Part shown: piece after piece, positions 5,759-63,261 of the stretch
How the letters are laid out: each line of letters opens with the position of its first letter
Position numbering within the stretch: position 1 is the first letter of the stretch
DNA from: a virus
Virus record (IMG/VR): IMGVR_UViG_3300021092_000026
Span: 1 to 64,000 of that record
Reading direction: 5' to 3' (one strand)
Length of the DNA stretch: 64,000 nt
The notes under the pieces: generated by a model
The model's database searches: none
What the model was told of the DNA's origin: nothing
The model's input: only the letters and a program-made list of their open reading frames with translations
Position numbers and translations under genes: made by a program

Positions 5759-6361
5759 TTATTTACTTATTTGCCAATAAATCTTTCCCGTAAAGTTTGG
5801 AGTTAATTCGTTATCTATACCAACACCAAATGCAAATGATTTTCTTTTTTTGGTTCTAATTAATAATTCACCATTGGCAATCATATAGTTTCTACTACCT
5901 GTAAAACCACCCCCTAAATAAATTTCTCTTTTATTTATTAAAATACTATGGGTAACAGTTTTTGTTGGTATGACAACAGTTGTGATTGATTGTCGGGACT
6001 GAATTTGATTTTGTGAAATTGTATCTTTTAATACCACATACCCAAAGGTATCTACCGCAACAGTATCTTCGTAGTAATACTTTGAATAGTAATCTGCTAA
6101 AAGTGCCATTGTATCAATAGGTTGAGGTTGGCTTACTATAAAGCTATCAATATCAATTACAACCCTATCTTTCCATTGTGGTACATAAACTTTTGATTCA
6201 TTAGTGATAGTATCGTATTTATATTCCACCGTTGTAACGGTGTCTATAGTAGGTTCATTGTTAAAAATTCTCTTAACAAACCCCATAGGTAATTTATCCC
6301 TAAGTAAAAATAGGATAATTAATACAACTACTACTAATCCAAAAATTTTAGATATTTTCAT
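5759..6361 (-). CDS. Membrane-anchored protein with beta-rich C-terminus (possible envelope/lysis accessory)
   Basis: N-terminal TM helix; many D-T sequons; C-terminal amphipathic strands. Confidence 0.55.
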   Translation of the reverse strand: MKISKIFGLVVVVLIILFLLRDKLPMGFVKRIFNNEPTIDTVTTVEYKYDTITNESKVYVPQWKDRVVIDIDSFIVSQPQPIDTMALLADYYSKYYYEDTVAVDTFGYVVLKDTISQNQIQSRQSITTVVIPTKTVTHSILINKREIYLGGGFTGSRNYMIANGELLIRTKKRKSFAFGVGIDNELTPNFTGKIYWQISK

Positions 6362-6662
6362 TATTCTTTTTTTGCTTTTTATGCTTTACTCTATAATTAT
6401 TTTTTCTTTTTGGGTTTGGTTTTTGCTCAACAACAGCATCAGTTTTAGGTTCTTCGGCAACAGGTGTTGCTTTTTTAACTTCAACTTTGGGTTGTTCAAC
6501 TTTGGGTTGTTCAGTTTTTGATTCCCAAGTTGGTGCTAATGTACCAGCATATCTTGGCGATGATGTAAAAGTTGGTTGTTTTGGAACTACCAATGTTTCA
6601 ATCTTTTTTGGTTCGGCTTTTTGGCCAAAAATTAAACTAAATAATCTTTTTAAAATGTTCAT
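6348..6662 (-). CDS. Low-complexity Lys/Pro/Glu-rich hypothetical protein
   Basis: Amphipathic N-terminus, EQPKV repeat, basic tail. Confidence 0.55.
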   Translation of the reverse strand: MNILKRLFSLIFGQKAEPKKIETLVVPKQPTFTSSPRYAGTLAPTWESKTEQPKVEQPKVEVKKATPVAEEPKTDAVVEQKPNPKRKNNYRVKHKKQKKNNENI

Positions 6663-6700
6663 AACTTTTCTCCTGTTTTTATAAATATTGATTTTTTTTG

Positions 6701-7636
6701 TTAAACTAATTTTGATATTAAATATGATGCTTTATCAATTAATAACCGATTGTATGGGCTGGATGTTATTATTGGTAATGCGTTTACAATATCCACTTTT
6801 GATTTTATATACAACTTTGATTTCGGGTCATTTTCAAACTTTTTAGCACCCCACAAATGGTATATTGATTGGTTTAATAATTTGTGAGCATCTTCTGATT
6901 GAGAATCAAAATCAAATGTGTAAAAAGCTTGATTGGTATAAACTACGGGGACCAATGCTTTTGTTTTTATTTTTTTATAATACTTTGAAAGTGCTGCTAA
7001 TAACCATTGTTCTAATATAATTTGTGGTGAAGATTCGGCGTACAGTAATAACTTTTCTTTTGTCATATTTTTTGTTTCCCCACTACCACCCAAAACAAAA
7101 TTAAAGTAATGATTTACATAATCGTTTTTAAATTTTTCGTTGAACATCCCAACAATAGCACAATTCATTGGAAATGAATCTTTAAAAGAATTTATTAGCT
7201 TTTTATCCCATTTCCAATTATCCGAATGTTCTATATCCAATGGATTACCATATGTGGTTGGTGATTCTCTATGAAGATACAATAAATCGCATCCCACCGA
7301 TTCTTTCTTTAAATTTTTATACAAAACCAAATCAGTATCATAAATAACAAATGGAGTTTTTAACTTTGACATTGCCCACAATTTAGGTGATGCCCAAAAG
7401 TTGGGTGATATTTTATCGTATGGATAATCATCAAAATAATCAGTAATAACACCATCATAAAGTGGGGTTATATTCCAACTATCATAAAATTCTTTTGATT
7501 TTTTATCCGTTATTAAGTATAATGGTGTATCCGAATTGTGCGTTTTATGCGTAATACAAGAATACATTTGAACTAACAACTCAAAAGAGCCTGGTGGTCT
7601 ATTTTGATTGACCAAAAACACATGATATGAATTCAT
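6701..7636 (-). CDS. Glycosyltransferase-like (GT-A/DUF6734-like) protein
   Basis: FWASPKL..PFVIYDTDL (DxD), NCAIVG, ILEQWLL and YHLWG motifs. Confidence 0.6.
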   Translation of the reverse strand: MNSYHVFLVNQNRPPGSFELLVQMYSCITHKTHNSDTPLYLITDKKSKEFYDSWNITPLYDGVITDYFDDYPYDKISPNFWASPKLWAMSKLKTPFVIYDTDLVLYKNLKKESVGCDLLYLHRESPTTYGNPLDIEHSDNWKWDKKLINSFKDSFPMNCAIVGMFNEKFKNDYVNHYFNFVLGGSGETKNMTKEKLLLYAESSPQIILEQWLLAALSKYYKKIKTKALVPVVYTNQAFYTFDFDSQSEDAHKLLNQSIYHLWGAKKFENDPKSKLYIKSKVDIVNALPIITSSPYNRLLIDKASYLISKLV

Positions 7637-7673
7637 CGTAACTTATTTATAATAAATATGGAACTAAAATTAA

Positions 7674-7946
7674 TTAATTCAATAATTTAATATTTACTTC
7701 AAGTGGTGTATTTCCACGAATAATTCTATGGTAAGTTTCTTTTTTAATTTTAAATTTATCACCAGCTTTTAATTCAATCGGAACTTCATTATCCAACTGA
7801 AACATCCAACCTTTACCACTTACAACCTCTACCAATCTATCTTCCCTATCTCTATGCCAAACCAATTCCGAATTATCTACATTTGGTTTAAATACTCTAC
7901 GAAGATTGTTTTCGGACCTGGTTTCAGAATACGGTCTTTTTGCCAT
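7674..7946 (-). CDS. Small cupin-like protein
   Basis: LVWHRDREDR and YHRIIRG cupin-like motifs. Confidence 0.6.
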   Translation of the reverse strand: MAKRPYSETRSENNLRRVFKPNVDNSELVWHRDREDRLVEVVSGKGWMFQLDNEVPIELKAGDKFKIKKETYHRIIRGNTPLEVNIKLLN

Positions 7947-7947
7947 A

Positions 7948-9396
7948 CTACCAATATGAGTTTATATCCTCACCACCACCGATTTTAGACCAATGGCGTG
8001 GTAAGTTACAAGACCAATATCCTGGTGTTGTTTTATCTTTTTTATCAGGACAATTATGTCTATCTGAAAATGCCCGTCTTGCTTCTGGGTTGTTTATTTT
8101 TGCAGTTAATCCACCCTTTACATCTCCAAAGGTTACTTTTCTGATGTTATCGCTTGATGGGTCTTTTACATACACAACATACTTTTTACCTTCACCTGAA
8201 TTTCTTTTTGGTGAATTTAACTCTACTTCAGTTCCTTGATACTGAGCTTCTACCAACATTGGAAAATCCAATAAAACTTTCTTACCTTCATAAATCCCAA
8301 TCTTACCCATATCAGAATCTAAAAACCATTCATCACTTTCATTCATTGGCATGAACTGACCTTTTCTCCACAAGTTCCTACACTCATTTACTAACTTAAA
8401 AAATTTGGGAGAACCATATCTAAATACATTTTCAGAAAGCGGTTTTTTGTTTTTTAAATGCCATCTCAACCCCTCACTAATTCTTTTTTTACCTTCACCC
8501 AAAGGATTACCATTTACATTTAATTCACCATTCAAATAATGTTTTGCATTAACCATCAATTCTTTTGCACGAATAATATCAGATTGCCACCAATGAGGAA
8601 AATCAACTTCTTCATCAGAGTTATCAAACTGATTCATCATTTCATAAAGTTCTTTTGCGTATTTAGCAATACGAAACAAATCAGCCTTTAACATATTAGG
8701 TTCATCATCCTGATGCCCCACATCAATATCTTCGGTTAAACTTTTTAACTTTTTTAATTTAGTTGTTAAATCGGCCATATTTTTTAAATGGGCCTTTTGC
8801 GCAGAGGTTCTTTTATTTTGAGGTATCTTATTATAAGCAACAGTATCTTTGGCATTATCTTTTAATGTTTTCTGAATACTTAACATTTCCTTTTGTTGTG
8901 CTGCTTGTTCTTTGCCCGATTTTTTAACGGAAGATTTGCTGGGCTCATCATCAATTTCATTTATTACAGGATATTTTTTTCCGTTAAATTCAAACTCTTT
9001 TAATCCTTCTTTTCTTGCATTAAAAAGTGCCCCAGTAAATGCATTACCTTCATTTATATTATCTTGTGCAAGAATTTGAATATCTTTTATATCACCCACA
9101 AATGGGCCTTGAAGGGTTCTGATGGTTACTTTACTACCCTGAATTTTTAGAACCATCCCAGTTTTATTTTTTGATTTAAAGTGAACAAAATCACCAAGAT
9201 CAAATCCTAAATCTTTTTTGGCTTCATCCACAGATTCTTCGGTTTTCCAACCACCACCTGCTGCTTTATATTGTTTCGCAGCCCAACCGTTGGCGTAGGC
9301 ACTAGGGTAAACATCAAACTTTTTCTTTGCTTGCGATTTATAATAAGACCATTTTGCTGGGTCTGTTGGAACATTTTTTTCTAATATTAGTTTCAT
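7948..9396 (-). CDS. Multi-module protein, putative internal head polyprotein
   Basis: Short modules resembling T4-like hypothetical proteins (FDVYPSAYANGW; AQYQG..ELNSP..VTFGD..YWSC) separated by x-x-E sites. Confidence 0.6.
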   Translation of the reverse strand: MKLILEKNVPTDPAKWSYYKSQAKKKFDVYPSAYANGWAAKQYKAAGGGWKTEESVDEAKKDLGFDLGDFVHFKSKNKTGMVLKIQGSKVTIRTLQGPFVGDIKDIQILAQDNINEGNAFTGALFNARKEGLKEFEFNGKKYPVINEIDDEPSKSSVKKSGKEQAAQQKEMLSIQKTLKDNAKDTVAYNKIPQNKRTSAQKAHLKNMADLTTKLKKLKSLTEDIDVGHQDDEPNMLKADLFRIAKYAKELYEMMNQFDNSDEEVDFPHWWQSDIIRAKELMVNAKHYLNGELNVNGNPLGEGKKRISEGLRWHLKNKKPLSENVFRYGSPKFFKLVNECRNLWRKGQFMPMNESDEWFLDSDMGKIGIYEGKKVLLDFPMLVEAQYQGTEVELNSPKRNSGEGKKYVVYVKDPSSDNIRKVTFGDVKGGLTAKINNPEARRAFSDRHNCPDKKDKTTPGYWSCNLPRHWSKIGGGEDINSYW

Positions 9397-9421
9397 TATA
9401 TGATACCTTTTTGATTATATT

Positions 9422-9661
9422 TTAATCTTTATATTCATCTCTTGCTTCTTGTTGTGCATAATCAACAATATCAACTATCAAGTCGGCTAATTTCCCCCAT
9501 TGATACTTATCCCCAACGTTTATTAAGTATTGTTCTAATGCTTTGACCGCTTTTCCAATATCTCCAGTATAAGCTGGTTTTATAGCGTTTACAAGTGGTC
9601 CTTCATTTAGGGCCCGTTTGGCTTCCTCTCGGATTAACTTTCTTAATTGCGATACTTTCAT
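9422..9661 (-). CDS. Hypothetical protein with MKVSQLRKLIREE leader
   Basis: ORF preceded by the ATATTTAT motif; IRE/LNE sites. Confidence 0.6.
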   Translation of the reverse strand: MKVSQLRKLIREEAKRALNEGPLVNAIKPAYTGDIGKAVKALEQYLINVGDKYQWGKLADLIVDIVDYAQQEARDEYKD

Positions 9662-42540: not shown

Positions 42541-43830
42541 TTAAAACGGATTATTAACAGCAGTAGTATCTTCAGTATTGAAGAGGTTTTCTTCACCAGT
42601 TTTTACAAACTTTTGAACGAACTGCTTCATAAACACACGCTCCGATTGAGCCCCACCACTATTATCAAAGAAGGGATAGATAGCAATCTCAGCTGCTTCA
42701 GTCAAACTAAATCCATCGTAGAGTAGCGAACCAATTTCCACAGCAGTACGAGTAGAGAGGGAGTTGGTCAGTTTGGGTGATTCACCACGAACCTCATCAC
42801 GGGTCATCGTTGTAATTTCAGCCACATTAACCAACAGTTCCGAAGATACCGAAGGATACATCATACCAAGCAAAGTAGATTCTTCATCCTTAGTCAGAGA
42901 ATCCATCTCAATAATCGTAAATCGGTCTAAGATAGCCCTATCAAGCATTCGGGTGGCGGTATATTCATTACCAATATTAGCAGAGGCAATAAAGGAAACA
43001 CCATCAGCCACATTGATAGTAGGAGCATCAGCGGCTTCATCCAAACGAAGGTAGCGTTGACCTGGATCGAGAACAGTCATCAGAATGTTCCACGCTTCGG
43101 GGTGAGCCCTCGTAATCTCGTCCAACACAACCACAGTGTTTGGCGTTTGGATTGCCTTCACAAAAGGTGATTGATTAAACACCGTACCTTTGGTGGTGTC
43201 ATATTGGGTATTACCAATCAGCGTAGTTCGGGGGTCTTGAGTAGCACCCAAGTTGATGATAAAGGTAGAGTACCCATCAATTGAACACGCAGCGGCTTTA
43301 GCAGCCATCGTTTTACCACAACCAGCAGCACCGGTCATCATAATGTTTTTACCACGGAGAATGTTACGAATTAAATATTTCCATTTCAGTTCCGGCATAA
43401 ACAACATCTTTGGCTTCAACCCCGCAGCTTCGGTGTGGATGAAGTTCAAAACATTTTCAGGCATAACCACCGGAGCGGTGATTTGAGCCGGAGTTGATAC
43501 CATAGTCACGGTAGGTTTATGAACCGAATCCACAGCGTATTGCTCCAACCCACCGTTTGGTTTATTGAAGTTCATAACGGGAGTGGTGTCGGTTGCTTTA
43601 GAAGCAGGAACACGGCCAAAACAAAGCTCACCAGAAGTGAACGAACCCTTAACCCTAATTTTGAATCGGAACTTATCAGGTCGCTTAGAAGCCTGAAGAG
43701 CCCTGCGGTAGAGGGAAGTCCCCTTCTCGTTAAGAGCTGGGATGTTGAACATTGCTCCATTTGAATCTTGGAACATTAGTACACCGTTACTTTGAACGAT
43801 AGTACCGAAAACAAATCTTTGGTTTTTCAT
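42541..43830 (-). CDS. MoxR/CbbQ/CobS-type AAA+ ATPase
   Basis: GAAGCGKT, VVLDEITRA, SAN and LDRAILDRF. Confidence 0.9.
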   Translation of the reverse strand: MKNQRFVFGTIVQSNGVLMFQDSNGAMFNIPALNEKGTSLYRRALQASKRPDKFRFKIRVKGSFTSGELCFGRVPASKATDTTPVMNFNKPNGGLEQYAVDSVHKPTVTMVSTPAQITAPVVMPENVLNFIHTEAAGLKPKMLFMPELKWKYLIRNILRGKNIMMTGAAGCGKTMAAKAAACSIDGYSTFIINLGATQDPRTTLIGNTQYDTTKGTVFNQSPFVKAIQTPNTVVVLDEITRAHPEAWNILMTVLDPGQRYLRLDEAADAPTINVADGVSFIASANIGNEYTATRMLDRAILDRFTIIEMDSLTKDEESTLLGMMYPSVSSELLVNVAEITTMTRDEVRGESPKLTNSLSTRTAVEIGSLLYDGFSLTEAAEIAIYPFFDNSGGAQSERVFMKQFVQKFVKTGEENLFNTEDTTAVNNPF

Positions 43831-43840
43831 ATATAGGGGT

Positions 43841-43963
43841 TTAACTTACAATATAAAGATACTACAGAAGGAGCAATTATCCAAGCTTTCAATATTAAAT
43901 TATCATTAAATTTATCCACAACTTATCCACATTTGAGGGAAAAGTGTCCATTTTATTGGACAC
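43841..43963 (-). promoter_or_regulatory. Composite early promoter: palindrome, 2 DnaA boxes, phased TTTAA repeats, TTG-N20-TATCTTTA core
   Basis: TTATCCACA at 43912 and 43923; GTGTCCA-N6-TGGACAC at 43944-43963. Confidence 0.75.
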
Positions 43964-46103
43964 CTACCTCAAATTTACCATTCAATGTCTTAGCCAAGTC
44001 CATTACCTCATTCACATTAATGAACCTAGCATCCTTACCATACATCCGAGTAAAGTCATCAGCGTAGGATGTACCACGCATTCTATCAAAGCTATATTCA
44101 CTAATAAAGTAAGATAAAACACTAACACCACCCATCCTTAATTTATTAACCTGGTCGGCGGTGTGTCTGATAGCAATATTGCCCTCATAACTCATGTCCT
44201 TATTTTCAAAGGTAGGCATACCATCCGAAAAGTTAATTAGGTATTTTTCGGAACTATCTTTGGTTTTCAAAATCTCACCCATAATCGCCTCATAACACAA
44301 ACCTTCAGGTGTTGTACCGTGTGGCATTAAATGTTTGAACATGCTCTTAATCTTTGAGAAATTATCAACCTTACTATCGTAAGCGATTACAATCAGCGGA
44401 ACTGAAGCACCATTATCATAAGTGCTTCGGTAACTAATAACCACATTGATATTTGATATCATTGAAGCGGCCTTAGCGATAGCAACCACAGCGGTTTGTG
44501 TATTACGCCATTTTCTTCCACCCATTGAACCACTAGCATCAACTGAAATATGAAGAGTGATTGGTTTTACGGAATTGGTTTGAATCTTTTCAAAGATATT
44601 GAAATTACCAAACCCAACCTCGTGTAACATTCGGGATGATATCTTACCCGATTTAAGACGGGGCGTAACCAAACTACGATTCTCATCACGCGTTTTAAGC
44701 TTTTTACCTAACAACACACCCAATGTAATACCTTTATCAATATATTTTTGATTCTCATCAAGGTGACCGGTATAATTAGTAGTAATAGCGAATGCACGGG
44801 ATTCAATCAACGAATTAGTAAGTTTCCTAACTAAATAACAGTTTGTTCTTTGAATACCACCACCCCAACGGCGTTCCGCGGATACGGTTTTCAAATCTAC
44901 ATCAGATTCCTCCAAAGCGTTTACTACAGAAGATTCACCCTTACTCATTTTCTTTTTAGAAATATTACCACTCAAAAAATCTTTCTGCTTTTTGATAGCG
45001 TTATTAAGTTTGTTTTTAAGAGAGGGTGAAAGCGTGTTCCCAGAACCACCAGAACTATTGTTAGAAGAATTCCCATCAGAAGAATCCCCATCAGAAGAAT
45101 CATCATCAGAAGAATCATCATCAGAAGAATCCCCATTACCATTAGATTCCATAGAACCACCACCCGTTTGAGGTGAATCAAAATCACCTGTCATTGGTGA
45201 GTTACCATTAGAATCGCCTGAAGATGAATCATTACTATCGCCGGATGAAGATTGATTATCCTCTTCAGTAGGTTCGGTATAAACTGCATCAAAAATAGTT
45301 AAGAAAATTTCTGAAGCCAGATTCAAACTATCAGTAGTGGTTTTTAATCGTTCAATGTTTTTCAAATCCAACAAAGTCCAAATAGTGGGTAAAGATTTAA
45401 GAGCACCCAACCTACGATGTTTGTTTGTAATGTTACAAAGTCGGAACATATAAGATTCCCAATCTTCGGTAGTGTATTCATCAGATACCAAAGCCTTATC
45501 AATAACACTATCATTAAAGTATTTATCATACATAGAGTGATAGTACCCACGATAACCAGGGGCTGTGTTATAAATGTAATTATCAATACGCCTATCCTCA
45601 ACAATATTGAGAATATCTTTTAGGTATTGAGACATATACTTTTTCAATGTACGAACAGCCAATATATCAGATTCAGATACCTCCGGCATTTTGGAAATAC
45701 GATTAGCAATAACGGGTGGTAACGCTGTGGAGTTTGGTTGAAAATACTTTTGAAGAATAGTAAAATCGGTAAGTTTAATGTGCGAACCCTCGTGGAGAGC
45801 CAACCCTACCGCCGGGTCAAATTCAGCATCATCCATCTTTGAAGAAATTACCACACTATTACCATCAGTATAGGATTGATTACCCGTAGAAAATTTGACC
45901 GGAATAGGTTTGTTTGTTACAATTCTCACAAAGTTAGAAATGGCCCGTTTATAAGAGGCCAACTTAATAAGGTCATTAGTTTTGACCTGATAAGCATCAC
46001 CACTACCATCAGCACGATAAGTGCCACGATAAGTGGTCGGGGTGAACATAGATTTATCCAACCAATAGTCGGAATAATAGGACTTACTTTTATATTTTTT
46101 CAT
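43953..46103 (-). CDS. vWA domain protein with an N-terminal HExxH domain (CobT-like partner of the AAA+)
   Basis: HEGSH, NIVEDRRID, S/D-rich linker, MIDAS DASGS..T..SDG. Confidence 0.85.
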   Translation of the reverse strand: MKKYKSKSYYSDYWLDKSMFTPTTYRGTYRADGSGDAYQVKTNDLIKLASYKRAISNFVRIVTNKPIPVKFSTGNQSYTDGNSVVISSKMDDAEFDPAVGLALHEGSHIKLTDFTILQKYFQPNSTALPPVIANRISKMPEVSESDILAVRTLKKYMSQYLKDILNIVEDRRIDNYIYNTAPGYRGYYHSMYDKYFNDSVIDKALVSDEYTTEDWESYMFRLCNITNKHRRLGALKSLPTIWTLLDLKNIERLKTTTDSLNLASEIFLTIFDAVYTEPTEEDNQSSSGDSNDSSSGDSNGNSPMTGDFDSPQTGGGSMESNGNGDSSDDDSSDDDSSDGDSSDGNSSNNSSGGSGNTLSPSLKNKLNNAIKKQKDFLSGNISKKKMSKGESSVVNALEESDVDLKTVSAERRWGGGIQRTNCYLVRKLTNSLIESRAFAITTNYTGHLDENQKYIDKGITLGVLLGKKLKTRDENRSLVTPRLKSGKISSRMLHEVGFGNFNIFEKIQTNSVKPITLHISVDASGSMGGRKWRNTQTAVVAIAKAASMISNINVVISYRSTYDNGASVPLIVIAYDSKVDNFSKIKSMFKHLMPHGTTPEGLCYEAIMGEILKTKDSSEKYLINFSDGMPTFENKDMSYEGNIAIRHTADQVNKLRMGGVSVLSYFISEYSFDRMRGTSYADDFTRMYGKDARFINVNEVMDLAKTLNGKFEVGVQ

Positions 46104-46461: not shown

Positions 46462-46896
46462 TTATCCCCCAAATGGGGTATCCTTGAGGTCAGCCCCAAA
46501 CCCATACTTTTTCTTAACCCGCTCTGAAATAGGAATCGGATTTCCATCCTCATCAATTCTCACAAAGGTAATATAGGTAGATACAACAGTAGTCTGACCT
46601 CCAGTATATACATTATGCGCTCTTGCTTCAATGTATAGTTTAACGGATGTATTACCAATACGATTTACACTACCATATACCTTTAATAACTGCCCTTCTT
46701 TTGCCGGCTTCTTAAATAAACATTCATCTATCTTAATAGTAACCACACGGGGTGTATCACACACCTGCATTGCGTACGCAGCCGCAGAAGCATCAATCCA
46801 TGCCAATGCTTTTCCACCAAAAAGGTTTCCGTGAAATCCTAAATCGGATTTCTTGACGGGATGTGTATTAATCAACTCCATCCGTAATTTCTTCAA
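46462..46896 (-). CDS. Acyl-CoA thioesterase (hotdog fold)
   Basis: DL..HGNLFGG..LAWID..; F.KP...G; G.TS; TFVRIDEDG.P. Confidence 0.88.
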   Translation of the reverse strand: MKKLRMELINTHPVKKSDLGFHGNLFGGKALAWIDASAAAYAMQVCDTPRVVTIKIDECLFKKPAKEGQLLKVYGSVNRIGNTSVKLYIEARAHNVYTGGQTTVVSTYITFVRIDEDGNPIPISERVKKKYGFGADLKDTPFGG

Positions 46897-47071
46897 ATGG
46901 TATAGATACTATTTCTCTACAAAAAAATAACAAACCATCTTTTTTAAAAGTATGGCTACATTCCCAATATTGTTTTATAAAATCTACATTTAGATTTGGT
47001 TCTTCTTTCATTGTACGATAGACCTGAAACATCCCATCGTTTACATAAATAACCTGTCCTAAATAACTCAT
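46868..47071 (-). CDS. Hypothetical protein
   Basis: Packed ORF. Confidence 0.5.
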   Translation of the reverse strand: MSYLGQVIYVNDGMFQVYRTMKEEPNLNVDFIKQYWECSHTFKKDGLLFFCREIVSIPFEEITDGVD

Positions 47072-47085
47072 AGTTTATTTTATTG

Positions 47086-47156
47086 AGCGGGTAGATGGAA
47101 TCGAACCACCGTCATAGGCTTGGAAAGCGAATGTAATACCATTATACGATACCCGC
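47086..47156 (-). tRNA. tRNA-Gly(TCC), atypical anticodon stem
   Basis: GCGGGTA/TACCCGC acceptor stem, TTCGATT T-loop, loop TTTCCAA; CCA not encoded. Confidence 0.85.
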
Positions 47157-47191
47157 AAGTACCCCCACTAAGGGGATGTGTTGAGAAACTA

Positions 47192-47362
47192 CTATTGTGC
47201 GGTAGTAGTGCTATCTGCAGCAGGATAAAACTCCTGAGTAGAATCTACAACTGCAGAATCAACTGGTTCAGCAACCGATTCTTCAGTTTGCTCAGCGTTG
47301 TTGGTGCAGGCCGTAAGTGATGCAACCATAGCAGCCATTACCATAAAAAAGATGTTTTTCAT
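47192..47362 (-). CDS. 56-aa lipoprotein
   Basis: Own translation MKNIFFMVMAAMVASLTA-C-TNNAEQTEESVAEPVDSAVVDSTQEFYPAADSTTTAQ; lipobox; promoter at about 47383-47420. Confidence 0.75.
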   Translation of the reverse strand: MKNIFFMVMAAMVASLTACTNNAEQTEESVAEPVDSAVVDSTQEFYPAADSTTTAQ

Positions 47363-47438
47363 AATTAAATTGTTTTAAATTTTACACAATATACAAAAGA
47401 AATTTCATATTTCCAAATTTTTTCATAAATAAATACAA

Positions 47439-47822
47439 TTATTTTTTTGATAAAATATCATTAAGCATGTTTATTTCCGTTTTAAACATTTCTTCTTCCA
47501 TTTTACCACGTTCTTTCTCAATTGCCTTTTGAACCAACTCAATCAATTCATTTGATAGAAATGAACTAATAGTAAACTCAAATGTATAATAGTGATTGGA
47601 AACTTTAACCATATTATTTTGCAGTATTAATGTATATTGTTTATCATCAGTTTGAACATAGTATCTACCCGATGGTGTCATCAAATAATGGGTTTTTGGA
47701 TTAGACATTAATCGTATTAAAACCCTCTTTGTTAAAACCTCTCTTTCAGTATATGGTTCGTGTTTAACTAAACCTCGCCTAAACCACACCTGCAATTTTT
47801 TAAATTTGTATTTTATATTCAT
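47439..47822 (-). CDS. Hypothetical protein
   Basis: ORF between tRNA genes. Confidence 0.55.
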   Translation of the reverse strand: MNIKYKFKKLQVWFRRGLVKHEPYTEREVLTKRVLIRLMSNPKTHYLMTPSGRYYVQTDDKQYTLILQNNMVKVSNHYYTFEFTISSFLSNELIELVQKAIEKERGKMEEEMFKTEINMLNDILSKK

Positions 47823-47838
47823 TACTTTTTTATTTTAG

Positions 47839-47912
47839 TACGCCCGAAGGGATTCGAACCCCTGGCCAACAGATTAGAAATCTGTTGCTCTATCCAACTG
47901 AGCTACGGGCGC
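47839..47912 (-). tRNA. tRNA-Arg(TCT)
   Basis: GCGCCCGTAGCTCAGTTGGATAGAGCAACAGATTTCTAATCTGT...GTTCGAATCC. Confidence 0.95.
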
Positions 47913-47926
47913 ATATTTATTTTTTG

Positions 47927-48011
47927 TACCTCGGACCGGAATCGAACCGGTACAGCCTCATCGGCTACAGGATTTTAAGTCCTGCGCGGCTACCTATTTC
48001 GCCACCGAGGC
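47927..48011 (-). tRNA. tRNA-Leu(TAA)
   Basis: GCCTCGG acceptor, CAGGA-CTTAAAA-TCCTG anticodon arm, long variable arm. Confidence 0.95.
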
Positions 48012-48021
48012 ATTATTATTA

Positions 48022-48204
48022 TTATTTATTAACTACTTTTTTTCTTACCACTTCGGTTACATTAAATAATTCATTAAATTGGGATACTTTCATTTTTTTA
48101 GTTTCACAAAATAACTCAATAGCATCTTCTAAAGAACTTGCTTTTGTTTTACTAATTGCTTCCATTTTATTATCCGATTTGAAATAAAAATAGTATTCTT
48201 TCAT
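48022..48204 (-). CDS. Hypothetical protein
   Basis: ORF downstream of a TTTGG..TATATTG promoter. Confidence 0.5.
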   Translation of the reverse strand: MKEYYFYFKSDNKMEAISKTKASSLEDAIELFCETKKMKVSQFNELFNVTEVVRKKVVNK

Positions 48205-48246
48205 AATCTACTCCGATTTAATTTTATACAATATACAAATAATTAT

Positions 48247-48705
48247 TTAATTATCCAAATCTTTTGTGTAATAAAAAACACCAATCCCCGCTTCCTCAAA
48301 CATTTTGATACTTCGTTCCGCACTTTCTTCCCACTTTAACTGATTAGAACCACCACCCAACATCCATATCTCCTTAATCCCAGCGTTTATAATCCCCCTT
48401 GCACAATCTGCGCAAGGTATTCCACAAGTCATATACATCCTCGCTCCATTCGTAGATACACCAATTCGGGCTGCATTATAGATAGCATTTCTTTCAGCGT
48501 GTTCAAACCAATAATACTTTTCAGGTCTATTCTGCCTTTCTTTGACACCATCATCAATCCCTCGTGGGAATGAGTTATACCCAGTAGATATAATCTCATT
48601 ATTATCCCCAACCAACACTACACCGATTTGTGTACTTTTATCTTTGGATTTTAATTTTACTACTTCAGCAATTTTTAAAAAGTATTCAGTCCAGTTCATT
48701 ATCAA
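48247..48705 (-). CDS. dCMP deaminase
   Basis: GYN, HAERNAI and PCADC. Confidence 0.93.
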   Translation of the reverse strand: MIMNWTEYFLKIAEVVKLKSKDKSTQIGVVLVGDNNEIISTGYNSFPRGIDDGVKERQNRPEKYYWFEHAERNAIYNAARIGVSTNGARMYMTCGIPCADCARGIINAGIKEIWMLGGGSNQLKWEESAERSIKMFEEAGIGVFYYTKDLDN

Positions 48706-48977
48706 AACTTAAAAGATAGTTTATATTCCTTATCACCTTCAGTTTTAAAGTGAACATCCTGACCTTTCCAATTTACGATTTCAGTTATCTTATCAGAACA
48801 AAAAGAATAAAATGAACCCATACCATCTGAATATTCAAAATTAAGAACGAGTATATTACCTACATGCGGCCCACCATCTTGCCAATTTTTTATACCACCT
48901 CGCAAATCTCTTTGGGCCCATTTGGCCGATTCTGCCTCCCAAATCCGGCCACTATTTACATCTTCTAATTTATACAT
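48702..48977 (-). CDS. Hypothetical protein
   Basis: Overlap-coupled ORF. Confidence 0.5.
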   Translation of the reverse strand: MYKLEDVNSGRIWEAESAKWAQRDLRGGIKNWQDGGPHVGNILVLNFEYSDGMGSFYSFCSDKITEIVNWKGQDVHFKTEGDKEYKLSFKF

Positions 48978-49404
48978 AATTATTAGCTATATCAATTCCC
49001 ATCATTCGTTTAATATGTCTACCTCCCTCAAAATCGGTTTCTAAAAATGTGGTTAGGATATCAACCGCATCATCAATACAAAGAAACCTTGCAGATAAAC
49101 AAATAACATTTGCATTATTGTGAGCCCTTGCTAATCGTGCAGTATCAACATCCCAACAAAGTGCGGCACGGATTCCCGGCCATTTATTCGCTGCCATACA
49201 CATCCCATTACCACTACCACATATAAGAATACCAAATTGTGATTTAAAGTTTGAACATAACCTATGTGCGTAATCTGGGTAATCAACGGACTCGGGAGTA
49301 TTCGTTCCCAAGTCCGTTAATTCTACGCCATTCTTACTCATAAACTCAATTAGGTGGTTTTTTAATTCCCACCCAGCGTGGTCTGATGCAATTAGTATTG
49401 ACAT
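48970..49404 (-). CDS. rpiB: Ribose-5-phosphate isomerase B
   Basis: SDHAG, DYPD, ICGSGNG, ANK, HNNAN and FEGGRH. Confidence 0.93.
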   Translation of the reverse strand: MSILIASDHAGWELKNHLIEFMSKNGVELTDLGTNTPESVDYPDYAHRLCSNFKSQFGILICGSGNGMCMAANKWPGIRAALCWDVDTARLARAHNNANVICLSARFLCIDDAVDILTTFLETDFEGGRHIKRMMGIDIANNYV

Positions 49405-49416
49405 TTTTATTTTATC

Positions 49417-50985
49417 CTAATTTTTAATAATACGGGTTGTATAATTTCCTGATAGTGTTCTAACATTAACAAAAAGAATACCCCTTATAGTATCTTCAAT
49501 ATTAACTATTGAACGATTTTCATTGTATGTAATATCCGATTGAACATTAGAACCCATAATATTAAATACTGAAATATTTGTAATAGGTTCGTTAGATTCC
49601 ACCGTGAATTGGTTATTCATAGGGTTTGGATAAACACTCATTCGTTTTGAGATATCCATATAACGAATAGATGTTCTAATTGTATCCGGGTTAAAATTAG
49701 ACCAACCAATTGTCCAATCAGATGTACCAAACGCACCACGATGAGTAACGGGTGTAAAGAAATTGTTTGATAGTCGGGGATTTGAAAAAGAAGCACCTGT
49801 TAATAAAATACTATTTTGTTGAGGAAGCAATTGTGGGTTTGTTAGATTATTATATCCTGAAGATAACCCAATTTGCGATGTACTATCAAATACTTCATTT
49901 TCTCTTAAACTATCACTAAAATAATTCACCATCCCAGCCCAAGAGTTTGCTCCGGCCGTTTGTTCAAATTTATTAGTCATATTAGCAAATACTACCCTTT
50001 CAATTTGAAGGATATCGTTGGTGGCATTTGATTGAGCAGCCGAACCATCAATATGTACTCCCGTTGGATATCCCATAAATAATGAATTATAAACGGATGT
50101 TCTCGTGTTTCTACGAAGGTGTAATGCCCTACGATAAAGCGAATTTGGTGTTCCATTTTCTTTTGGACCGATAATAGTTACATTTGAAAATAGTGGTGCG
50201 GTAATAGGAGTATTCCCACTACCCGTTCCATCGTTATCAGATTCAAACCCGTTTGATTGGGATTGGTCGGCAATGGCTGCATCGCGTATTGATAAAGCAA
50301 ACTGTACTTTACCTGTATAACCAAAATCGGTATCAAAATCATCATCCCATCCACGATGGGCAATTAGATATTTACCATTAACTGTTCCACCAAACCACTC
50401 AAAGGCATCATCGCCTGAATAACTGACTTGTACATATTCAATAATAGTTTTACTACCAACACCACCCAAAGTTAATCCGTTAATTTCATTATTTGGTTGA
50501 TAAGCAATGCCGGGAAATTCAATACGAACATACCTAAATACACCCGAACTATCTTCATCATCAGTTCCACCATAGGTCGCATCTTGCCCTAAAAGACCAC
50601 CTTCAATAATACCAACCCCACCAGGAATATTAGTGGTAGCGTTTCCTAAAATAACAACACCACCCCAATCTCCATAACCTCGCTGACCGGTGGGTTCATT
50701 TGAGGTAAAAACAATTGGTTGGGTTTGAGTTCCATTTGCGTTAATACGGCCGTTTTTAGTAACAATTAAAGTTCCCTTTGATGCTTTATCGCCTCTGATA
50801 ATTGTACCAGGTTCAATAGTTAAGGTTGCCCCATTTTTTACAAACCGATTTCCCGTTAGTAAATAAATTGTACCACTATTCCAAGTGGTGTTTGTTGTAA
50901 TATCCGATTGGATAGTATCAACTGTAGTTTGCGCTTGTGCGAAACTAATCATGCTCAAAAGAGCGAGAATAAAACTTTTTTTCAT
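49417..50985 (-). CDS. Secreted beta-helix protein with a T9SS type A C-terminal sorting domain
   Basis: Signal peptide (..FAQA|Q); PIVFTS, WGG and DDAFEWFGG; C-terminal VYPNP..ISVFNIMG..G...V.....TTRIIK. Confidence 0.85.
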   Translation of the reverse strand: MKKSFILALLSMISFAQAQTTVDTIQSDITTNTTWNSGTIYLLTGNRFVKNGATLTIEPGTIIRGDKASKGTLIVTKNGRINANGTQTQPIVFTSNEPTGQRGYGDWGGVVILGNATTNIPGGVGIIEGGLLGQDATYGGTDDEDSSGVFRYVRIEFPGIAYQPNNEINGLTLGGVGSKTIIEYVQVSYSGDDAFEWFGGTVNGKYLIAHRGWDDDFDTDFGYTGKVQFALSIRDAAIADQSQSNGFESDNDGTGSGNTPITAPLFSNVTIIGPKENGTPNSLYRRALHLRRNTRTSVYNSLFMGYPTGVHIDGSAAQSNATNDILQIERVVFANMTNKFEQTAGANSWAGMVNYFSDSLRENEVFDSTSQIGLSSGYNNLTNPQLLPQQNSILLTGASFSNPRLSNNFFTPVTHRGAFGTSDWTIGWSNFNPDTIRTSIRYMDISKRMSVYPNPMNNQFTVESNEPITNISVFNIMGSNVQSDITYNENRSIVNIEDTIRGILFVNVRTLSGNYTTRIIKN

Positions 50986-51028
50986 AGATTGTTTTTTTAA
51001 ATTGTTTATATAAATAAATATTGATTTT

Positions 51029-51367
51029 TTATTTCCAAAATATTTGTATCAATATAATAACTCCTGATAAAATTAAACACACCATTGTTTTTGTATTTAA
51101 ATTCTCTCCAAAAAGTAATTGTGAAAGTATAGCAAAAACCACTACCCCAATACCAAACCCAATAAGACGGGATGGCCAAAGTAACCCACCATAATAGTTG
51201 ATAATTTGCCTAACCGATTCCATATACATCATTGATATTGGAATACCCATTAATACAATAACCCAATAGTTATCTTTGAACCATTGGTATTTTATCTGAC
51301 CTTGTAGTTGATAAAAAGTAAGTACCTGTGCCAATAGCATCAGAAACATTCCGATTAAAAGTGCCAT
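51029..51367 (-). CDS. Four-TM small membrane protein (SMR/DMT-like)
   Basis: Four hydrophobic helices; LFGE.L motif. Confidence 0.6.
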   Translation of the reverse strand: MALLIGMFLMLLAQVLTFYQLQGQIKYQWFKDNYWVIVLMGIPISMMYMESVRQIINYYGGLLWPSRLIGFGIGVVVFAILSQLLFGENLNTKTMVCLILSGVIILIQIFWK

Positions 51368-51857: not shown

Positions 51858-51919
51858 TTTTTAAAGATATTTTTATCTTCTAATATAATAATTAGTTTTT
51901 TCATAGGTTTATTTTTTTG

Positions 51920-51993
51920 TACTCCGTACGGGACTCGAACCCGTAAGCTTTCCCGTGAAAGGGGAATGTCCTAACCAATTAGACGAACGGAGC
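51920..51993 (-). tRNA. tRNA-Glu(TTC)
   Basis: GCTCCGTTCGTCTAATTGGTTAGGAC-A-TTCCC-CTTTCAC-GGGAA...GTTCGAGTCC. Confidence 0.95.
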
Positions 51994-52003
51994 GCATTTA
52001 TTG

Positions 52004-52077
52004 TGTTCCTGGTAGGGTTCGAACCTACGACCACCTGATTATGAGTCAGACGCTCTAACCTGCTGAGCTACGGGAAC
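52004..52077 (-). tRNA. tRNA with CAT anticodon (probably Ile2, possibly elongator Met)
   Basis: GTTCCCGTAGCTCAGCAGGTTAGAGCG-TCTGA-CTCATAA-TCAGG; no initiator GGG/CCC stem. Confidence 0.9.
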
Positions 52078-56374: not shown

Positions 56375-56629
56375 TTAATTATAGAATAATCCTTCAGATA
56401 ACTTATTGCTTAATGTATGGTCCATATAATCCCACGGGTGCATTCCTGCTATTTCCCTTAGTTTACTATCTCTAGCTAACCACATAACACTATCATATTG
56501 TAATTCCCCAATATAATTGGAGGATTTCATTTGTTCCAAAATTGCGGAAACCGATAAGGGATACTTATTAGCCTCTCCTTCAATTACTGCTTTAGCTTCC
56601 GGCTTCAATCGTTCAAATAGATTTTTCAT
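56375..56629 (-). CDS. Hypothetical protein
   Basis: Downstream of an early promoter repeat. Confidence 0.55.
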   Translation of the reverse strand: MKNLFERLKPEAKAVIEGEANKYPLSVSAILEQMKSSNYIGELQYDSVMWLARDSKLREIAGMHPWDYMDHTLSNKLSEGLFYN

Positions 56630-56643
56630 AACTTTTATTTTTT

Positions 56644-56712
56644 AATTTACAAAGTAAAGATACTACAAAAGGAGCAATTATCCAAACTTTCAATATTAAA
56701 TTATCGTTAAGT
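56644..56712 (-). promoter_or_regulatory. Early promoter repeat
   Basis: TTTGGATAATTGCTCCTTTTGTAGTATCTTTACTTTGTAA. Confidence 0.75.
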
Positions 56713-56919
56713 TTTAGATGAGGCCTCATTTACCCACTCTCCACTTGAATCCTCCCAGTAGATTCGATTACCTTCAGAATCGTATTCATACTTTACCCAA
56801 AACCTATCCGAATTTTCGGAGTAGATTAGGTTATTATTCGTGTCCCGTATTTCCAACCGACCGATGGTCTCAAAGTCCCAGTTAAGAAACTGTCCAATTG
56901 TTTGTGTCGTATTTCTCAT
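56707..56919 (-). CDS. YD-like repeat family member (short)
   Basis: TIGQFLNWDF cap; YDSEGNRIYWEDS. Confidence 0.7.
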   Translation of the reverse strand: MRNTTQTIGQFLNWDFETIGRLEIRDTNNNLIYSENSDRFWVKYEYDSEGNRIYWEDSSGEWVNEASSKT

Positions 56920-62970: not shown

Positions 62971-63261
62971 TTATTTGGATAAAATTAACATACTCATAGG
63001 AATATTGTAACTACGAAACGGGTACGATACATCATTAACCGATGCTTTGGTTCGGTTGATTTTAGTAACCCGTAGTTTACTACCACGCACCTTTGGGTGG
63101 TCACACGTAACCACATCACCAACTTTCAACTGCGAACCAACCAACTTACTCTCAAGGGCACGGGTGGATTTGATTGTGGCAACTACCATACTATTAAGAG
63201 TACGAAGCTCATCAAGACTTAGTTGGGAAAGGAGGGGGGTAATCGAACTTAATTTATTCAT
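62971..63261 (-). CDS. Hypothetical protein with an SH3-like C-terminus
   Basis: LKVGDVV..VTKINRTKA.V. Confidence 0.6.
   Translation of the reverse strand: MNKLSSITPLLSQLSLDELRTLNSMVVATIKSTRALESKLVGSQLKVGDVVTCDHPKVRGSKLRVTKINRTKASVNDVSYPFRSYNIPMSMLILSK

What the first reader, a model, noticed from the sequence alone, without database searches (positions are those of the whole stretch)
49417..51021. Phage-encoded cargo for the host type IX secretion system
Seen: signal peptide, beta-helix body and a C-terminal domain with YPNP, (F)NIMG and terminal RIIK features; the gene is preceded by the putative late motif. Established: such CTDs route proteins through the Bacteroidota T9SS to the surface or medium. 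From memory, to be verified: the body resembles lipoproteins encoded next to TonB-dependent receptors and induced by phosphate limitation. Inference: the phage uses the host T9SS to display a nutrient-scavenging or receptor-blocking protein. I do not know of a characterised phage T9SS substrate.
Basis: partly seen in the sequence, partly recalled or inferred. Interest (0 to 1): 0.75.

Follow-up and report, generated by a model that had tools for sequence, protein, structure and literature searches.

The report
Phage copy of phosphate-starvation surface protein
A large freshwater phage of Bacteroidota carries a long-conserved copy of a bacterial surface protein that normally works beside a phosphate-starvation outer-membrane importer. 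The copy bears the tag that sends proteins out through the host's type IX secretion system, so the phage probably changes nutrient capture or the surface of the infected cell.

Summary
Gene 49417-50985 (-) encodes a Sec signal peptide, a right-handed beta-helix body and a genuine T9SS type A C-terminal sorting domain. Pfam PF18962 scores 37.6 bits (cut-off 27) and TIGR04183 34.2 bits (cut-off 23).

It is a real phage gene, not an assembly chimera. It lies in a 74.8-kb virus record with portal, terminase and baseplate genes. It sits at the same syntenic place in contigs from 12 other metagenomes and has phage-like base composition. It evolves under purifying selection (body dN/dS about 0.1). 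The 10 phage copies form one clade among 62 cellular homologs.

The body belongs to Pfam Beta_helix_4 (PF28492). In 62 of 67 informative bacterial loci the homolog lies next to a TonB-dependent receptor, often beside pstSCAB-phoU or PHO4. This matches the published low-phosphate-induced lipoproteins FI-FIII of Flavobacterium johnsoniae and ElpS of Caulobacter; sequence identity to them was not tested.

Three related phages carry the same body with a lipoprotein signal instead of the sorting domain. An unrelated 634-kb phage carries a lipoprotein-type homolog together with its own receptor.

The best reading is a surface-exported phosphorus-scavenging auxiliary gene; receptor masking is the main rival. 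Phage T9SS cargo has been noted before, in two papers and many times in this scan, including this family in five other phage genomes. No secretion or function was tested.

The parts
49417..50985 (-). Whole CDS, 522 aa plus stop: phage-encoded T9SS type A cargo with a Beta_helix_4 (ElpS-like) body
   Evidence: ORF list and translation. Homologs at 63-94% identity lie on phage-size contigs and carry PF28492 + PF18962. The position is syntenic in 13 viral loci.
50932..50985 (-). Sec (SPI-type) signal peptide, residues 1-18, predicted cleavage AQA|Q
   Evidence: Read from the translation. The N-terminal helix 2-13 has low pLDDT. Sister phage copies replace it with a lipobox.
49675..50931 (-). Right-handed parallel beta-helix body (residues 19-437), with acidic clusters recurring about every 22-26 residues: D106, E128, E156, D192/D193/E196, D214/D215/D218/D220, D240, E248/D250
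   Evidence: AF2 model and VIA-align Z up to 23. 71 of the 73 columns that are at least 95% conserved in 62 cellular homologs are kept in all 10 phage copies. dN/dS is 0.09-0.15.
49648..49674 (-). Flexible linker (residues 438-446) before the sorting domain; this is where the T9SS signal peptidase PorU would be expected to cut
   Evidence: pLDDT is below 50 at 438-446. The cleavage itself is inference from established T9SS biology.
49420..49647 (-). T9SS type A C-terminal sorting domain (residues 447-522; HMM match 451-520/522)
   Evidence: PF18962 37.6 bits against cut-off 27. TIGR04183 34.2 bits against 23. Foldseek matches the substrate domains in 8glk_D and 8gl6_D. A profile search hits PDB sorting domains 5jvk, 8glk and 8glj.
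51014..51021 (-). Upstream motif ATATTTAT, shared with many genes of the 1-41 kb module; candidate phage promoter element of unproven class
   Evidence: 15 of 22 coding-strand copies are intergenic; it also precedes a primase.
51029..51367 (-). SMR/EmrE-like four-helix membrane protein directly upstream; it co-occurs with the beta-helix gene in 11 of 13 viral loci, and no functional link is shown

Best explanation
Shown:
- The gene is a stable phage gene, captured once from Bacteroidota-type bacteria and kept in a lineage of large freshwater phages.
- It encodes a Sec signal peptide, a beta-helix body of family Beta_helix_4 (PF28492) and a T9SS type A sorting domain.
- In bacteria this body is encoded directly after a TonB-dependent receptor, often inside or beside pstSCAB-phoU/PHO4 loci. 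It carries either a T9SS sorting domain or a lipoprotein signal. The phage clade uses both.

Inferred mechanism:
- During infection the protein crosses the inner membrane through host Sec.
- The host T9SS recognises its C-terminal domain. The protein is carried across the outer membrane, cut at the linker, and either attached to the surface or released.
- There it does what its cellular relatives do. With its row of conserved acidic residues, probably through bound metal ions, it captures a phosphorus-bearing substrate and passes it to the host's own TonB-dependent receptor.
- This would raise phosphorus supply for replication of a genome of about 180 kb in phosphorus-poor lake water. It would be an auxiliary gene comparable in purpose to cyanophage pstS/phoA, but one that depends on T9SS.
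For: Phage identity:
- The window is a virus record, 41% complete.
- It holds portal, terminase and baseplate genes and five tRNAs.

Sorting domain.

Conservation in phages:
- 13 viral loci from 12 other metagenomes hold the gene, with shared neighbours.
- The 10 phage copies form one clade with SH-aLRT 100.
- Body dN/dS is 0.09-0.15.
- 71 of 73 family-conserved columns are kept.
- GC3 is 21.4%, against 24.8 +/- 6.6% for the window's genes.

Surface destination:
- Phage sister copies L012-L014 have a lipobox followed by K/E-K-D and no sorting domain.
- Cellular homologs split into 27 with a sorting domain and about 35 lipoproteins.

Link to phosphate:
- A receptor is adjacent in 62 of 67 informative loci.
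- PstS, PstC, PstB, PhoU, PHO4 and OlsF-like genes are neighbours.
- Low-phosphate induction of pectin-lyase-fold lipoproteins downstream of TonB-dependent transporters is published for F. johnsoniae (PMC8115612).
- It is also published for ElpS, next to receptor CC0171 in Caulobacter (PMC2996285).

Independent capture: the 634-kb phage LR745206.1 encodes a lipoprotein-type homolog directly followed by a TonB-dependent receptor.

Weak hints:
- PhoH is present in 4 of 5 related phage records.
- Contigs from lake-water RNA libraries lie inside the gene at 95-99% identity.
Against: - No experiment exists: secretion, cleavage, ligand and benefit are all inferred.
- The ligand of the family is unknown even in bacteria. 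ElpS was reported not to be a phosphatase itself.
- The phage lineage carries no receptor of its own: no Plug domain was found in five records, one of them 84% complete. It also carries no pstS. The protein must therefore fit a host receptor or act alone.
- The host is unknown.
- Homology to ElpS and FI-FIII rests on shared fold, context and the papers' descriptions, not on a sequence comparison made here.
- If the upstream motif is a late promoter, late expression suits nutrient capture less well than receptor masking.
- The RNA evidence comes from contigs only and cannot exclude carried-over DNA.
Confidence: 0.5

Rival explanations
1. Receptor masking or superinfection exclusion. The phage copy, displayed on the surface, docks on the host TonB-dependent receptor that is the natural partner of this family. 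That receptor may be the phage's own receptor. Blocking it would stop later phages from adsorbing and stop progeny from being lost on cell debris, as lipoprotein Llp of phage T5 does with FhuA (from my own knowledge).
For: - The cellular family is the dedicated neighbour of a TonB-dependent receptor.
- The phage lineage carries the partner protein but no receptor.
- Both phage forms are anchored at the surface, by sorting domain or lipoprotein signal.
- The gene shares its upstream motif with the portal and other genes of the structural module, which fits expression at the time progeny are made.
Against: - 71 of 73 family-conserved positions are kept in all phage copies, including the whole ladder of acidic residues, under dN/dS of about 0.1. 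This points to retention of the full biochemical activity, not only of a docking surface.
- An unrelated huge phage carries the receptor and partner together, which looks like a working importer.
- The phage's receptor is unknown.
- The motif also precedes a primase, so late timing is not shown.
Confidence: 0.2
2. Secreted metal-dependent glycan lyase, hydrolase or binder. It would act on capsule, exopolysaccharide or another anionic polymer around the infected cell, easing release of progeny or freeing carbon, and would be unrelated to phosphorus.
For: - The best fold matches are Ca-dependent lyases, epimerases and phage depolymerases: Pel9A, PL6 lyases, AlgE4 and tailspikes, at Z 18-23.
- Conserved Asp clusters together with invariant Arg/His/Lys residues resemble Ca-dependent beta-elimination sites in a general way.
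- Bellas 2020 found glycan-active T9SS cargo in a phage.
Against: - The fold matches are generic, at 6-13% identity with no family standing out.
- No CAZy-type Pfam family hits the protein.
- The genomic context in bacteria is phosphate transport, not polysaccharide utilisation loci.
Confidence: 0.15
3. Virion tailspike or depolymerase that has been misread as a secreted protein.
For: The beta-helix fold is the classical tailspike fold; Foldseek and VIA-align list many tailspikes.
Against: - The protein has a cleavable signal peptide or lipobox in place of a virion-attachment domain.
- It has a T9SS sorting domain.
- The gene lies about 17 kb from the baseplate genes, among RpiB, dCMP deaminase, thioesterase and tRNA genes.
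- Its closest relatives are bacterial partners of TonB-dependent receptors.
Confidence: 0.03
4. Assembly chimera or recent host contamination: a bacterial gene wrongly joined to a phage contig.
For: The family is overwhelmingly bacterial: 9330 representative clusters, and 157 of 185 genomes of one bacterial family hold it.
Against: - The same gene with the same neighbours is found in contigs from 12 other metagenomes.
- It forms a phage-only clade at no more than about 55% identity to chromosomal homologs. Homologs at 63% identity or more are seen only on contigs of up to 335 kb.
- Its composition is like the phage's.
Confidence: 0.01

Closest known systems
Low-phosphate-induced pectin-lyase-fold lipoproteins FI, FII and FIII of Flavobacterium johnsoniae (Fjoh_3856, Fjoh_0546, Fjoh_4889; Lidbury et al. 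2021, PMC8115612) and ElpS (CC0170) of Caulobacter crescentus (Le Blastier et al. 2010, PMC2996285)
   Same: - Beta-helix (pectin-lyase-like) fold.
- Located at the cell surface.
- Gene placed directly beside a TonB-dependent receptor in a phosphate-regulon setting, shown here for the bacterial homologs of the phage protein.
- About 430-aa body.
- Lipoprotein variants exist in the phage clade too.
   Different: - This copy is encoded by a phage, without an adjacent receptor.
- It uses a T9SS sorting domain, whereas ElpS is a lipoprotein released with the help of T2SS.
- Direct sequence homology to these named proteins was not tested here, because no reference to their sequences was available.
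- Their ligand is also unknown.
Phage-encoded T9SS type A cargo noted in 'Cryophage' (Bellas et al. 2020, PMC7468147) and in crAss-like contigs (de Jonge et al. 2019, PMC6949934)
   Same: - A phage of Bacteroidota encodes proteins with Por_Secre_tail sorting domains.
- They are presumed to use the host T9SS.
- Known from sequence only.
   Different: - Those passengers are an endoglucanase, a GH39, a PA14 protein and BACON repeats, and in Cryophage they are hypervariable.
- Here the passenger belongs to a phosphate-regulon family.
- It is conserved under purifying selection across a phage lineage.
- Its anchor alternates with a lipoprotein signal.
Cyanophage phosphate-acquisition auxiliary genes pstS and phoA (from my own knowledge)
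   Same: A host-derived gene of the phosphate-starvation response, kept by phages of phosphorus-poor waters and presumed to raise phosphorus supply during infection.
   Different: - A different protein family and a different compartment: cell surface rather than periplasm.
- Export depends on T9SS or on surface-lipoprotein sorting.
- Function is unproven.
Lipoprotein Llp of phage T5, which blocks the TonB-dependent receptor FhuA (from my own knowledge)
   Same: A phage-encoded outer-membrane or surface protein whose natural target would be a TonB-dependent receptor.
   Different: - Llp is a small, unrelated protein.
- No binding or exclusion has been shown here.
- The phage protein keeps the full set of conserved residues of a large bacterial family.
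TonB-dependent receptor genes of Lak-type huge phages (bioRxiv 10.64898/2026.10.24.761521)
   Same: Huge phages of Bacteroidota carry outer-membrane importer genes. The 634-kb phage LR745206.1 carries such a receptor directly after a homolog of this protein.
   Different: - The window's phage lineage has the partner protein only.
- That preprint has no occurrence of 'lipoprotein', 'beta-helix' or 'T9SS'.

Membership tests
T9SS type A cargo (TIGR04183 / PF18962 Por_Secre_tail) | C-terminal domain matches the family HMM above the curated cut-off | tested here: met
   PF18962 scores 37.6 bits against 27 and TIGR04183 34.2 bits against 23. Sister phage copies score 32.8, 37.6, 25.3 and 25.7 bits.
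T9SS type A cargo (TIGR04183 / PF18962 Por_Secre_tail) | The domain lies at the extreme C-terminus, after a flexible linker | tested here: met
   The match covers residues 451-520/522 of 522. The linker at 438-446 has pLDDT below 50.
T9SS type A cargo (TIGR04183 / PF18962 Por_Secre_tail) | N-terminal Sec signal peptide for the first membrane crossing | tested here: met
   Read from the sequence: MKK, hydrophobic core, AQA|Q. No signal-peptide predictor was available.
T9SS type A cargo (TIGR04183 / PF18962 Por_Secre_tail) | Beta-sandwich fold like solved sorting domains bound to the translocon | tested here: met
   Foldseek matches 8glk_D (TM 0.79) and 8gl6_D (TM 0.73) with probability 1.00.
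T9SS type A cargo (TIGR04183 / PF18962 Por_Secre_tail) | Export depends on T9SS (GldN/SprA/PorV) and the domain is removed by PorU | not testable with these tools
   Needs expression in wild-type and mutant Bacteroidota.
T9SS type A cargo (TIGR04183 / PF18962 Por_Secre_tail) | The host possesses a T9SS | not tested
   The host is unknown. The nearest cellular homologs are from Bacteroidota and Ignavibacteriota.
Beta_helix_4 (PF28492) / ElpS-like partner of phosphate-regulon TonB-dependent receptors | Match to PF28492 | tested here: inconclusive
   The local Pfam copy lacks this model. All listed homologs, from 94% identity downwards, carry a precomputed PF28492 hit, and the nearest Atlas clusters are 100% PF28492. 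Membership is near certain but was not scored directly.
Beta_helix_4 (PF28492) / ElpS-like partner of phosphate-regulon TonB-dependent receptors | Right-handed parallel beta-helix fold | tested here: met
   AF2 model with pLDDT 86.8. VIA-align Z 23.0 to 7o0y_A (rmsd 3.2 over 273 aligned residues) and many other beta-helix proteins.
Beta_helix_4 (PF28492) / ElpS-like partner of phosphate-regulon TonB-dependent receptors | Gene adjacent to a TonB-dependent receptor | tested here: not met
   This holds for the bacterial homologs (62 of 67 informative loci) and for the huge phage LR745206.1. It does not hold for this phage lineage: the upstream gene is an SMR-like membrane protein, and no Plug domain was found in five phage records. 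This is a feature of context, not of the protein.
Beta_helix_4 (PF28492) / ElpS-like partner of phosphate-regulon TonB-dependent receptors | Sequence homology to ElpS (CC0170) and Fjoh_0546/3856/4889 | not tested
   No reference to these sequences could be obtained. The link rests on fold, context and the papers' descriptions.
Beta_helix_4 (PF28492) / ElpS-like partner of phosphate-regulon TonB-dependent receptors | Induction by phosphate limitation | not testable with these tools
   Published for the bacterial proteins. For the phage gene there are only RNA-library contigs of unknown condition.
Phage auxiliary metabolic gene | Host-derived gene kept in a phage lineage under purifying selection, outside the core modules | tested here: met
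Polysaccharide lyases of the beta-helix class (PL1, PL6, PL9) | Fold plus Ca-binding Asp cluster and catalytic base in register with a known family | tested here: inconclusive
   The fold is shared (Pel9A Z 21.6, PL6 Z 20-21) at 8-13% identity. No model coordinates were available to compare active sites, and no lyase Pfam family hits.
Phage tailspike / depolymerase | N-terminal virion-attachment module and a place in the tail gene module | tested here: not met
   A signal peptide or lipobox stands at the N-terminus. The gene lies among auxiliary genes and tRNAs, about 17 kb from the baseplate genes.

The most novel reading that the evidence does not exclude
A widespread lineage of large freshwater Bacteroidota phages raises the phosphorus capture of the infected cell. 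It does so by exporting, through the host T9SS (or, in sister phages, as a surface lipoprotein), its own copy of the surface partner of the phosphate-starvation TonB-dependent importer. This would be the first auxiliary gene shown to depend on T9SS. It would also give a compact, highly expressed model for finding the unknown ligand of the ElpS / FI-FIII family.
Probability: 0.45. Interest if true: 0.7.

Novelty: new variant of a known kind. Interest (0 to 1): 0.55.

Why it matters
Phosphorus often limits freshwater bacteria, and phage replication needs much of it. The known phage answers (pstS, phoA, from my own knowledge) come from cyanophages and act in the periplasm.

Here a phage of Bacteroidota carries a protein for the cell surface that belongs to one of the most strongly phosphate-induced, yet functionally unsolved, protein families of that phylum. 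It needs the phylum's own secretion system to get there.

Three things follow if the reading is right:

- It gives a testable case of a phage using T9SS.
- The sorting domain marks the host phylum for a group of uncultured large phages.
- It offers a second route to the function of the ElpS / FI-FIII family, since whatever the phage keeps under strong selection is likely to be the core activity.

The alternation of sorting domain and lipoprotein signal on one body, in cells and in phages alike, also shows that the two surface-sorting routes are interchangeable for this family.

Tried and rejected
The contigs behind the closest database homologs (for example P0021 on a 335-kb contig) could therefore not be inspected. 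Contig sizes and source names were used instead.
- PF28492 is not in the local Pfam or in the genome search library, so the body could not be scored against it. The named control genomes (Caulobacter, Bacteroides) could not be queried for it either.
- An attempt to reach F. johnsoniae by searching the bacterial family of a Flavobacteriaceae MAG gave 157 of 185 genomes with a homolog.
- PHROGs gave no family for the protein.
- Sequence searches of the PDB found only sorting domains, and no solved relative of the body.
- Foldseek on the whole model gave only weak, generic beta-helix matches. VIA-align gave strong but equally generic ones, so no function follows from the fold.
- The sigma-70-type promoter scan of 48-52.5 kb found no more sites than shuffled sequence.
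- Reads laid from four lake-water RNA libraries were contigs only. They show presence in RNA libraries, not transcription, strand or 5' end. The lack of cover over 51029-51367 means nothing.
- No model coordinates were available in the script box, so the acidic ladder could not be mapped on the structure or compared with lyase active sites.
- The 'late promoter' reading of ATATTTAT was weakened, because the motif also precedes a primase and an HNH-like gene.
Full report
**What is there.** The minus-strand ORF 49417-50985 encodes 522 residues.
- It starts with a typical Sec signal: MKK, a hydrophobic core, then AQA followed by Q.
- It ends with a domain that matches both curated models of the T9SS type A sorting domain above their cut-offs. 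PF18962 gives 37.6 bits against 27 (E 2.8e-9). TIGR04183 gives 34.2 bits against 23.
- An AlphaFold2 model built on 30 homologs has mean pLDDT 86.8. It shows a right-handed parallel beta-helix from about residue 19 to 437, a disordered linker at 438-446, and a beta-sandwich C-terminal domain.
- That domain superposes on the substrate sorting domains seen in T9SS translocon complexes, 8glk_D and 8gl6_D (TM 0.79 and 0.73).
- The body gives VIA-align Z scores of 18-23 to NosD, phage tailspikes, alginate epimerases, Pel9A and PL6 lyases at 6-13% identity. The fold is certain, but no function follows from it.

**The upstream motif.** ATATTTAT at 51014-51021 sits in the 43-nt gap before the gene.
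- The word is not over-represented overall.
- 22 of its 25 copies are on the coding strand, and 15 of those lie in the 6.3% of the window that is intergenic, mostly 5-31 nt before a start codon.
- It is therefore a real positional signal.
- It precedes the portal gene, but also a primase and an HNH-like gene. Calling it 'late' is not justified.

**A phage gene, not a chimera.**
- The window belongs to a 74.8-kb IMG/VR virus record judged 41% complete.
- It carries portal, large terminase, baseplate wedge and SbcC-like genes and five tRNA genes.
- Thirteen further viral loci from 12 other metagenomes encode the protein at 65-87% identity. Most share the neighbours: an SMR-like membrane protein upstream; RpiB, a 91-aa protein and dCMP deaminase downstream; then a thioesterase, a MoxR-type ATPase and a vWA protein.
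- The gene's GC (36.3%) and GC3 (21.4%) lie within one standard deviation of the window's genes.
- In a maximum-likelihood tree with 62 cellular homologs, the ten phage copies form one clade with SH-aLRT 100.
- Database homologs at 63% identity or more occur only on contigs of up to 335 kb. Homologs near 50% sit on megabase bacterial contigs.
- Two NCBI records of the phage type are filed under Actinobacteria MAGs on contigs of 1.5-3 kb. These are probably mis-binned phage fragments.

**Selection.**
- Pairwise dN/dS of the body is 0.09-0.15. The sorting domain evolves faster, at 0.28-0.87 with saturated dS in the distant pairs.
- The sorting domain still matches PF18962 over its full length in all four sister copies tested, twice above and twice just below the cut-off.
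- Of 73 alignment columns that are at least 95% conserved in the 62 cellular proteins, 71 are unchanged in all ten phage proteins.
- These include acidic clusters that recur about every 22-26 residues, roughly one per helix turn, together with R154, R291 and R292.
- The phage thus keeps the whole conserved surface of the family.

**The family in bacteria.**
- The body belongs to Pfam Beta_helix_4, PF28492.
- The family is very large: 9330 representative clusters at E up to 0.001, and 157 of 185 genomes of one bacterial family hold it.
- In 80 bacterial loci, mostly Bacteroidota and Ignavibacteriota, the gene follows a TonB-dependent receptor on the same strand in 60 loci and precedes one in 2. 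Eleven loci are cut by contig ends and five lack an adjacent receptor.
- Twenty loci hold pstS, pstC, pstB, phoU or PHO4 within 8 kb. In several, the order receptor, beta-helix gene, pstS, pstC, pstA, pstB, phoU reads as one operon.
- OlsF-like lipid-remodelling genes, calcineurin-type phosphoesterases and two-component regulators recur nearby.
- This matches two published descriptions. Lidbury et al. (PMC8115612) describe the low-phosphate-induced lipoproteins FI, FII and FIII of F. johnsoniae. These have a pectin-lyase fold, two lie downstream of induced TonB-dependent transporters, they are among the most abundant exoproteins, and they are 31-36% identical to ElpS.
- Le Blastier et al. (PMC2996285) describe ElpS of Caulobacter. 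It is a surface lipoprotein next to receptor CC0171, made under phosphate starvation, then released. It raises extracellular phosphatase activity when over-produced but is not itself a phosphatase.
- I could not compare sequences with these named proteins, so that identity is likely but untested.

**Two anchors on one body.**
- Among the cellular homologs, 27 end in a T9SS sorting domain and about 35 begin with a lipobox.
- The phage clade shows the same split. Seven copies have a signal peptide plus sorting domain.
- Three copies (L012-L014) have a lipobox Cys followed by K/E-K-D and stop right after the body, with no PF18962 match.
- Both routes lead to the outer face of the outer membrane in Bacteroidota. 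This supports a surface or extracellular site of action for the phage protein.

**A second, independent capture.**
- A tblastn search of GenBank phages found a 34%-identical homolog in the 634-kb uncultured phage LR745206.1.
- There it is a 431-aa lipoprotein, and its reading frame overlaps the start of an 882-aa protein with CarbopepD_reg_2 and Plug domains, that is, a TonB-dependent receptor. NUDIX, NAMPT-like and ClpP genes lie nearby.
- A recent preprint reports transcribed TonB-dependent receptor genes in Lak phages of Prevotella. A term search of it found no occurrence of 'lipoprotein', 'beta-helix' or 'T9SS'.
- A phage that carries receptor and partner together looks like it builds a working importer. 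This favours the nutrient-capture reading for the family in phages.
- In the window's own lineage, no Plug domain and no pstS were found in five records, one of them 84% complete. PhoH is present in four.

**Other T9SS cargo and prior art.**
- Each of the five related phage records has at least one PF18962 match.
- The 227-kb record has a second one on a cohesin-domain protein. The record with the lipoprotein form has another at its contig end.
- Phage T9SS cargo has been noted in the literature for 'Cryophage' (PMC7468147) and for crAss-like contigs (PMC6949934), without experiments.
- This scan's own notes hold 259 findings on the theme. They include first-reader notes on this same protein family in five other phage genomes, and a note on a Pho-type receptor paired with a T9SS-sorted beta-helix protein in a bacterium.

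**Expression.** Short contigs (151-340 nt, 95-99% identical) from lake-water metatranscriptome libraries lie within the gene and within rpiB. This places the phage in lake water and is a weak hint of transcription. Carried-over DNA cannot be excluded.

**Verdict.**
- The most likely mechanism is Sec export followed by T9SS transport, cleavage at the linker, and surface display or release. The protein, an ElpS-like beta-helix probably dependent on bound metal, would then feed the host's phosphate-starvation TonB-dependent receptor. I give this about 0.5.
- Masking of that receptor gets about 0.2, and a glycan-active secreted enzyme about 0.15.
- Tailspike and chimera readings are rejected.
- It is a new variant of known kinds (phage auxiliary genes for phosphorus; phage T9SS cargo), not a new category.

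Noticed in passing
window 51029-51367 (-): A 112-aa four-helix membrane protein lies directly upstream and co-occurs with the beta-helix gene in 11 of 13 viral loci, even where other synteny is lost. It has 360 homolog clusters, seen only on contigs of up to about 300 kb, and no Pfam family. JGI labels some 'EmrE-like'. The AF2 model (pLDDT 88) has SMR proteins (Gdx-Clo, EmrE) as its top, weak, matches. TM1 has an invariant Ala-Gln where EmrE has its essential Glu; invariant motifs are FQLQG, WPSR and E87.
   Followed up: partly
L095 (LR745206.1, 634-kb uncultured phage) 5791-7086 and 6983-9631: A huge phage encodes a lipoprotein-type Beta_helix_4 homolog (34% identity) directly followed by a TonB-dependent receptor (CarbopepD_reg_2 + Plug). 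NUDIX, NAMPT-like and ClpP genes are nearby. This is a whole importer cassette captured by a phage.
   Followed up: partly
L097 (G193:202808-206038) and L096 (G194:32578-34355): Related phages carry further T9SS type A cargo. One is a protein of at least 579 aa with a cohesin domain and PF18962 (43.9 bits). The other is a PF18962 match (57 bits) cut by the contig end in the phage that has the lipoprotein form of the beta-helix gene.
   Followed up: partly
NCBI proteins NDD98338.1 and NCZ70801.1 (cluster of P0024): Phage-type copies of this T9SS protein are filed under Actinobacteria MAGs on contigs of 1.5-3 kb. These are most likely phage fragments put in the wrong bin, since Actinobacteria have no T9SS.
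   Followed up: no
window 42.5-63.3 kb, upstream of 42541-43830, 43953-46103, 56375-56629, 56707-56919, 62971-63261: A second, quite different upstream cassette (TTGGATA ... GTAGTATCTTTAC(A/T)TTGTAAGTTAA) precedes genes of this half of the window. The beta-helix gene is the only gene in this half preceded in intergenic DNA by the ATATTTAT motif of the other half.
   Followed up: partly
window 42541-46103 (-): A MoxR/CbbQ-type AAA ATPase (429 aa) and a 716-aa protein with an acidic Ser/Asp/Gly-rich middle form a conserved pair in all related phage loci. PHROGs names their best families 'porphyrin biosynthesis' and 'cobalamin biosynthesis protein' (CobS/CobT-like).
   Followed up: no
window 46462-49404 (-): An auxiliary-gene run lies downstream of the finding: RpiB-type sugar-phosphate isomerase, a 91-aa protein, dCMP deaminase, a 4HBT thioesterase, and tRNA-Gly, tRNA-Arg and tRNA-Leu. 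tRNA-Glu and tRNA-Met lie upstream at 51919-52077.
   Followed up: no
L060, L062, L076, L080 (Flavobacteriales MAGs) and L095: Several lipoprotein-type family members carry a short Cys-rich module right after the lipobox (C-K-K-x-E-G-C-T-D-P-x-A-x-N-Y ... D-D-G-S-C). The huge-phage copy has it too. Its role is unknown.
   Followed up: no
L065, L070, L033, L087 and other bacterial loci: OlsF-like bifunctional acyltransferase genes (Acyltransf_2 + Acetyltransf_5) recur near the receptor/beta-helix pair, as do GT4 glycosyltransferases in Hymenobacter. Both fit phosphorus-free lipid remodelling in the same regulon.
   Followed up: no
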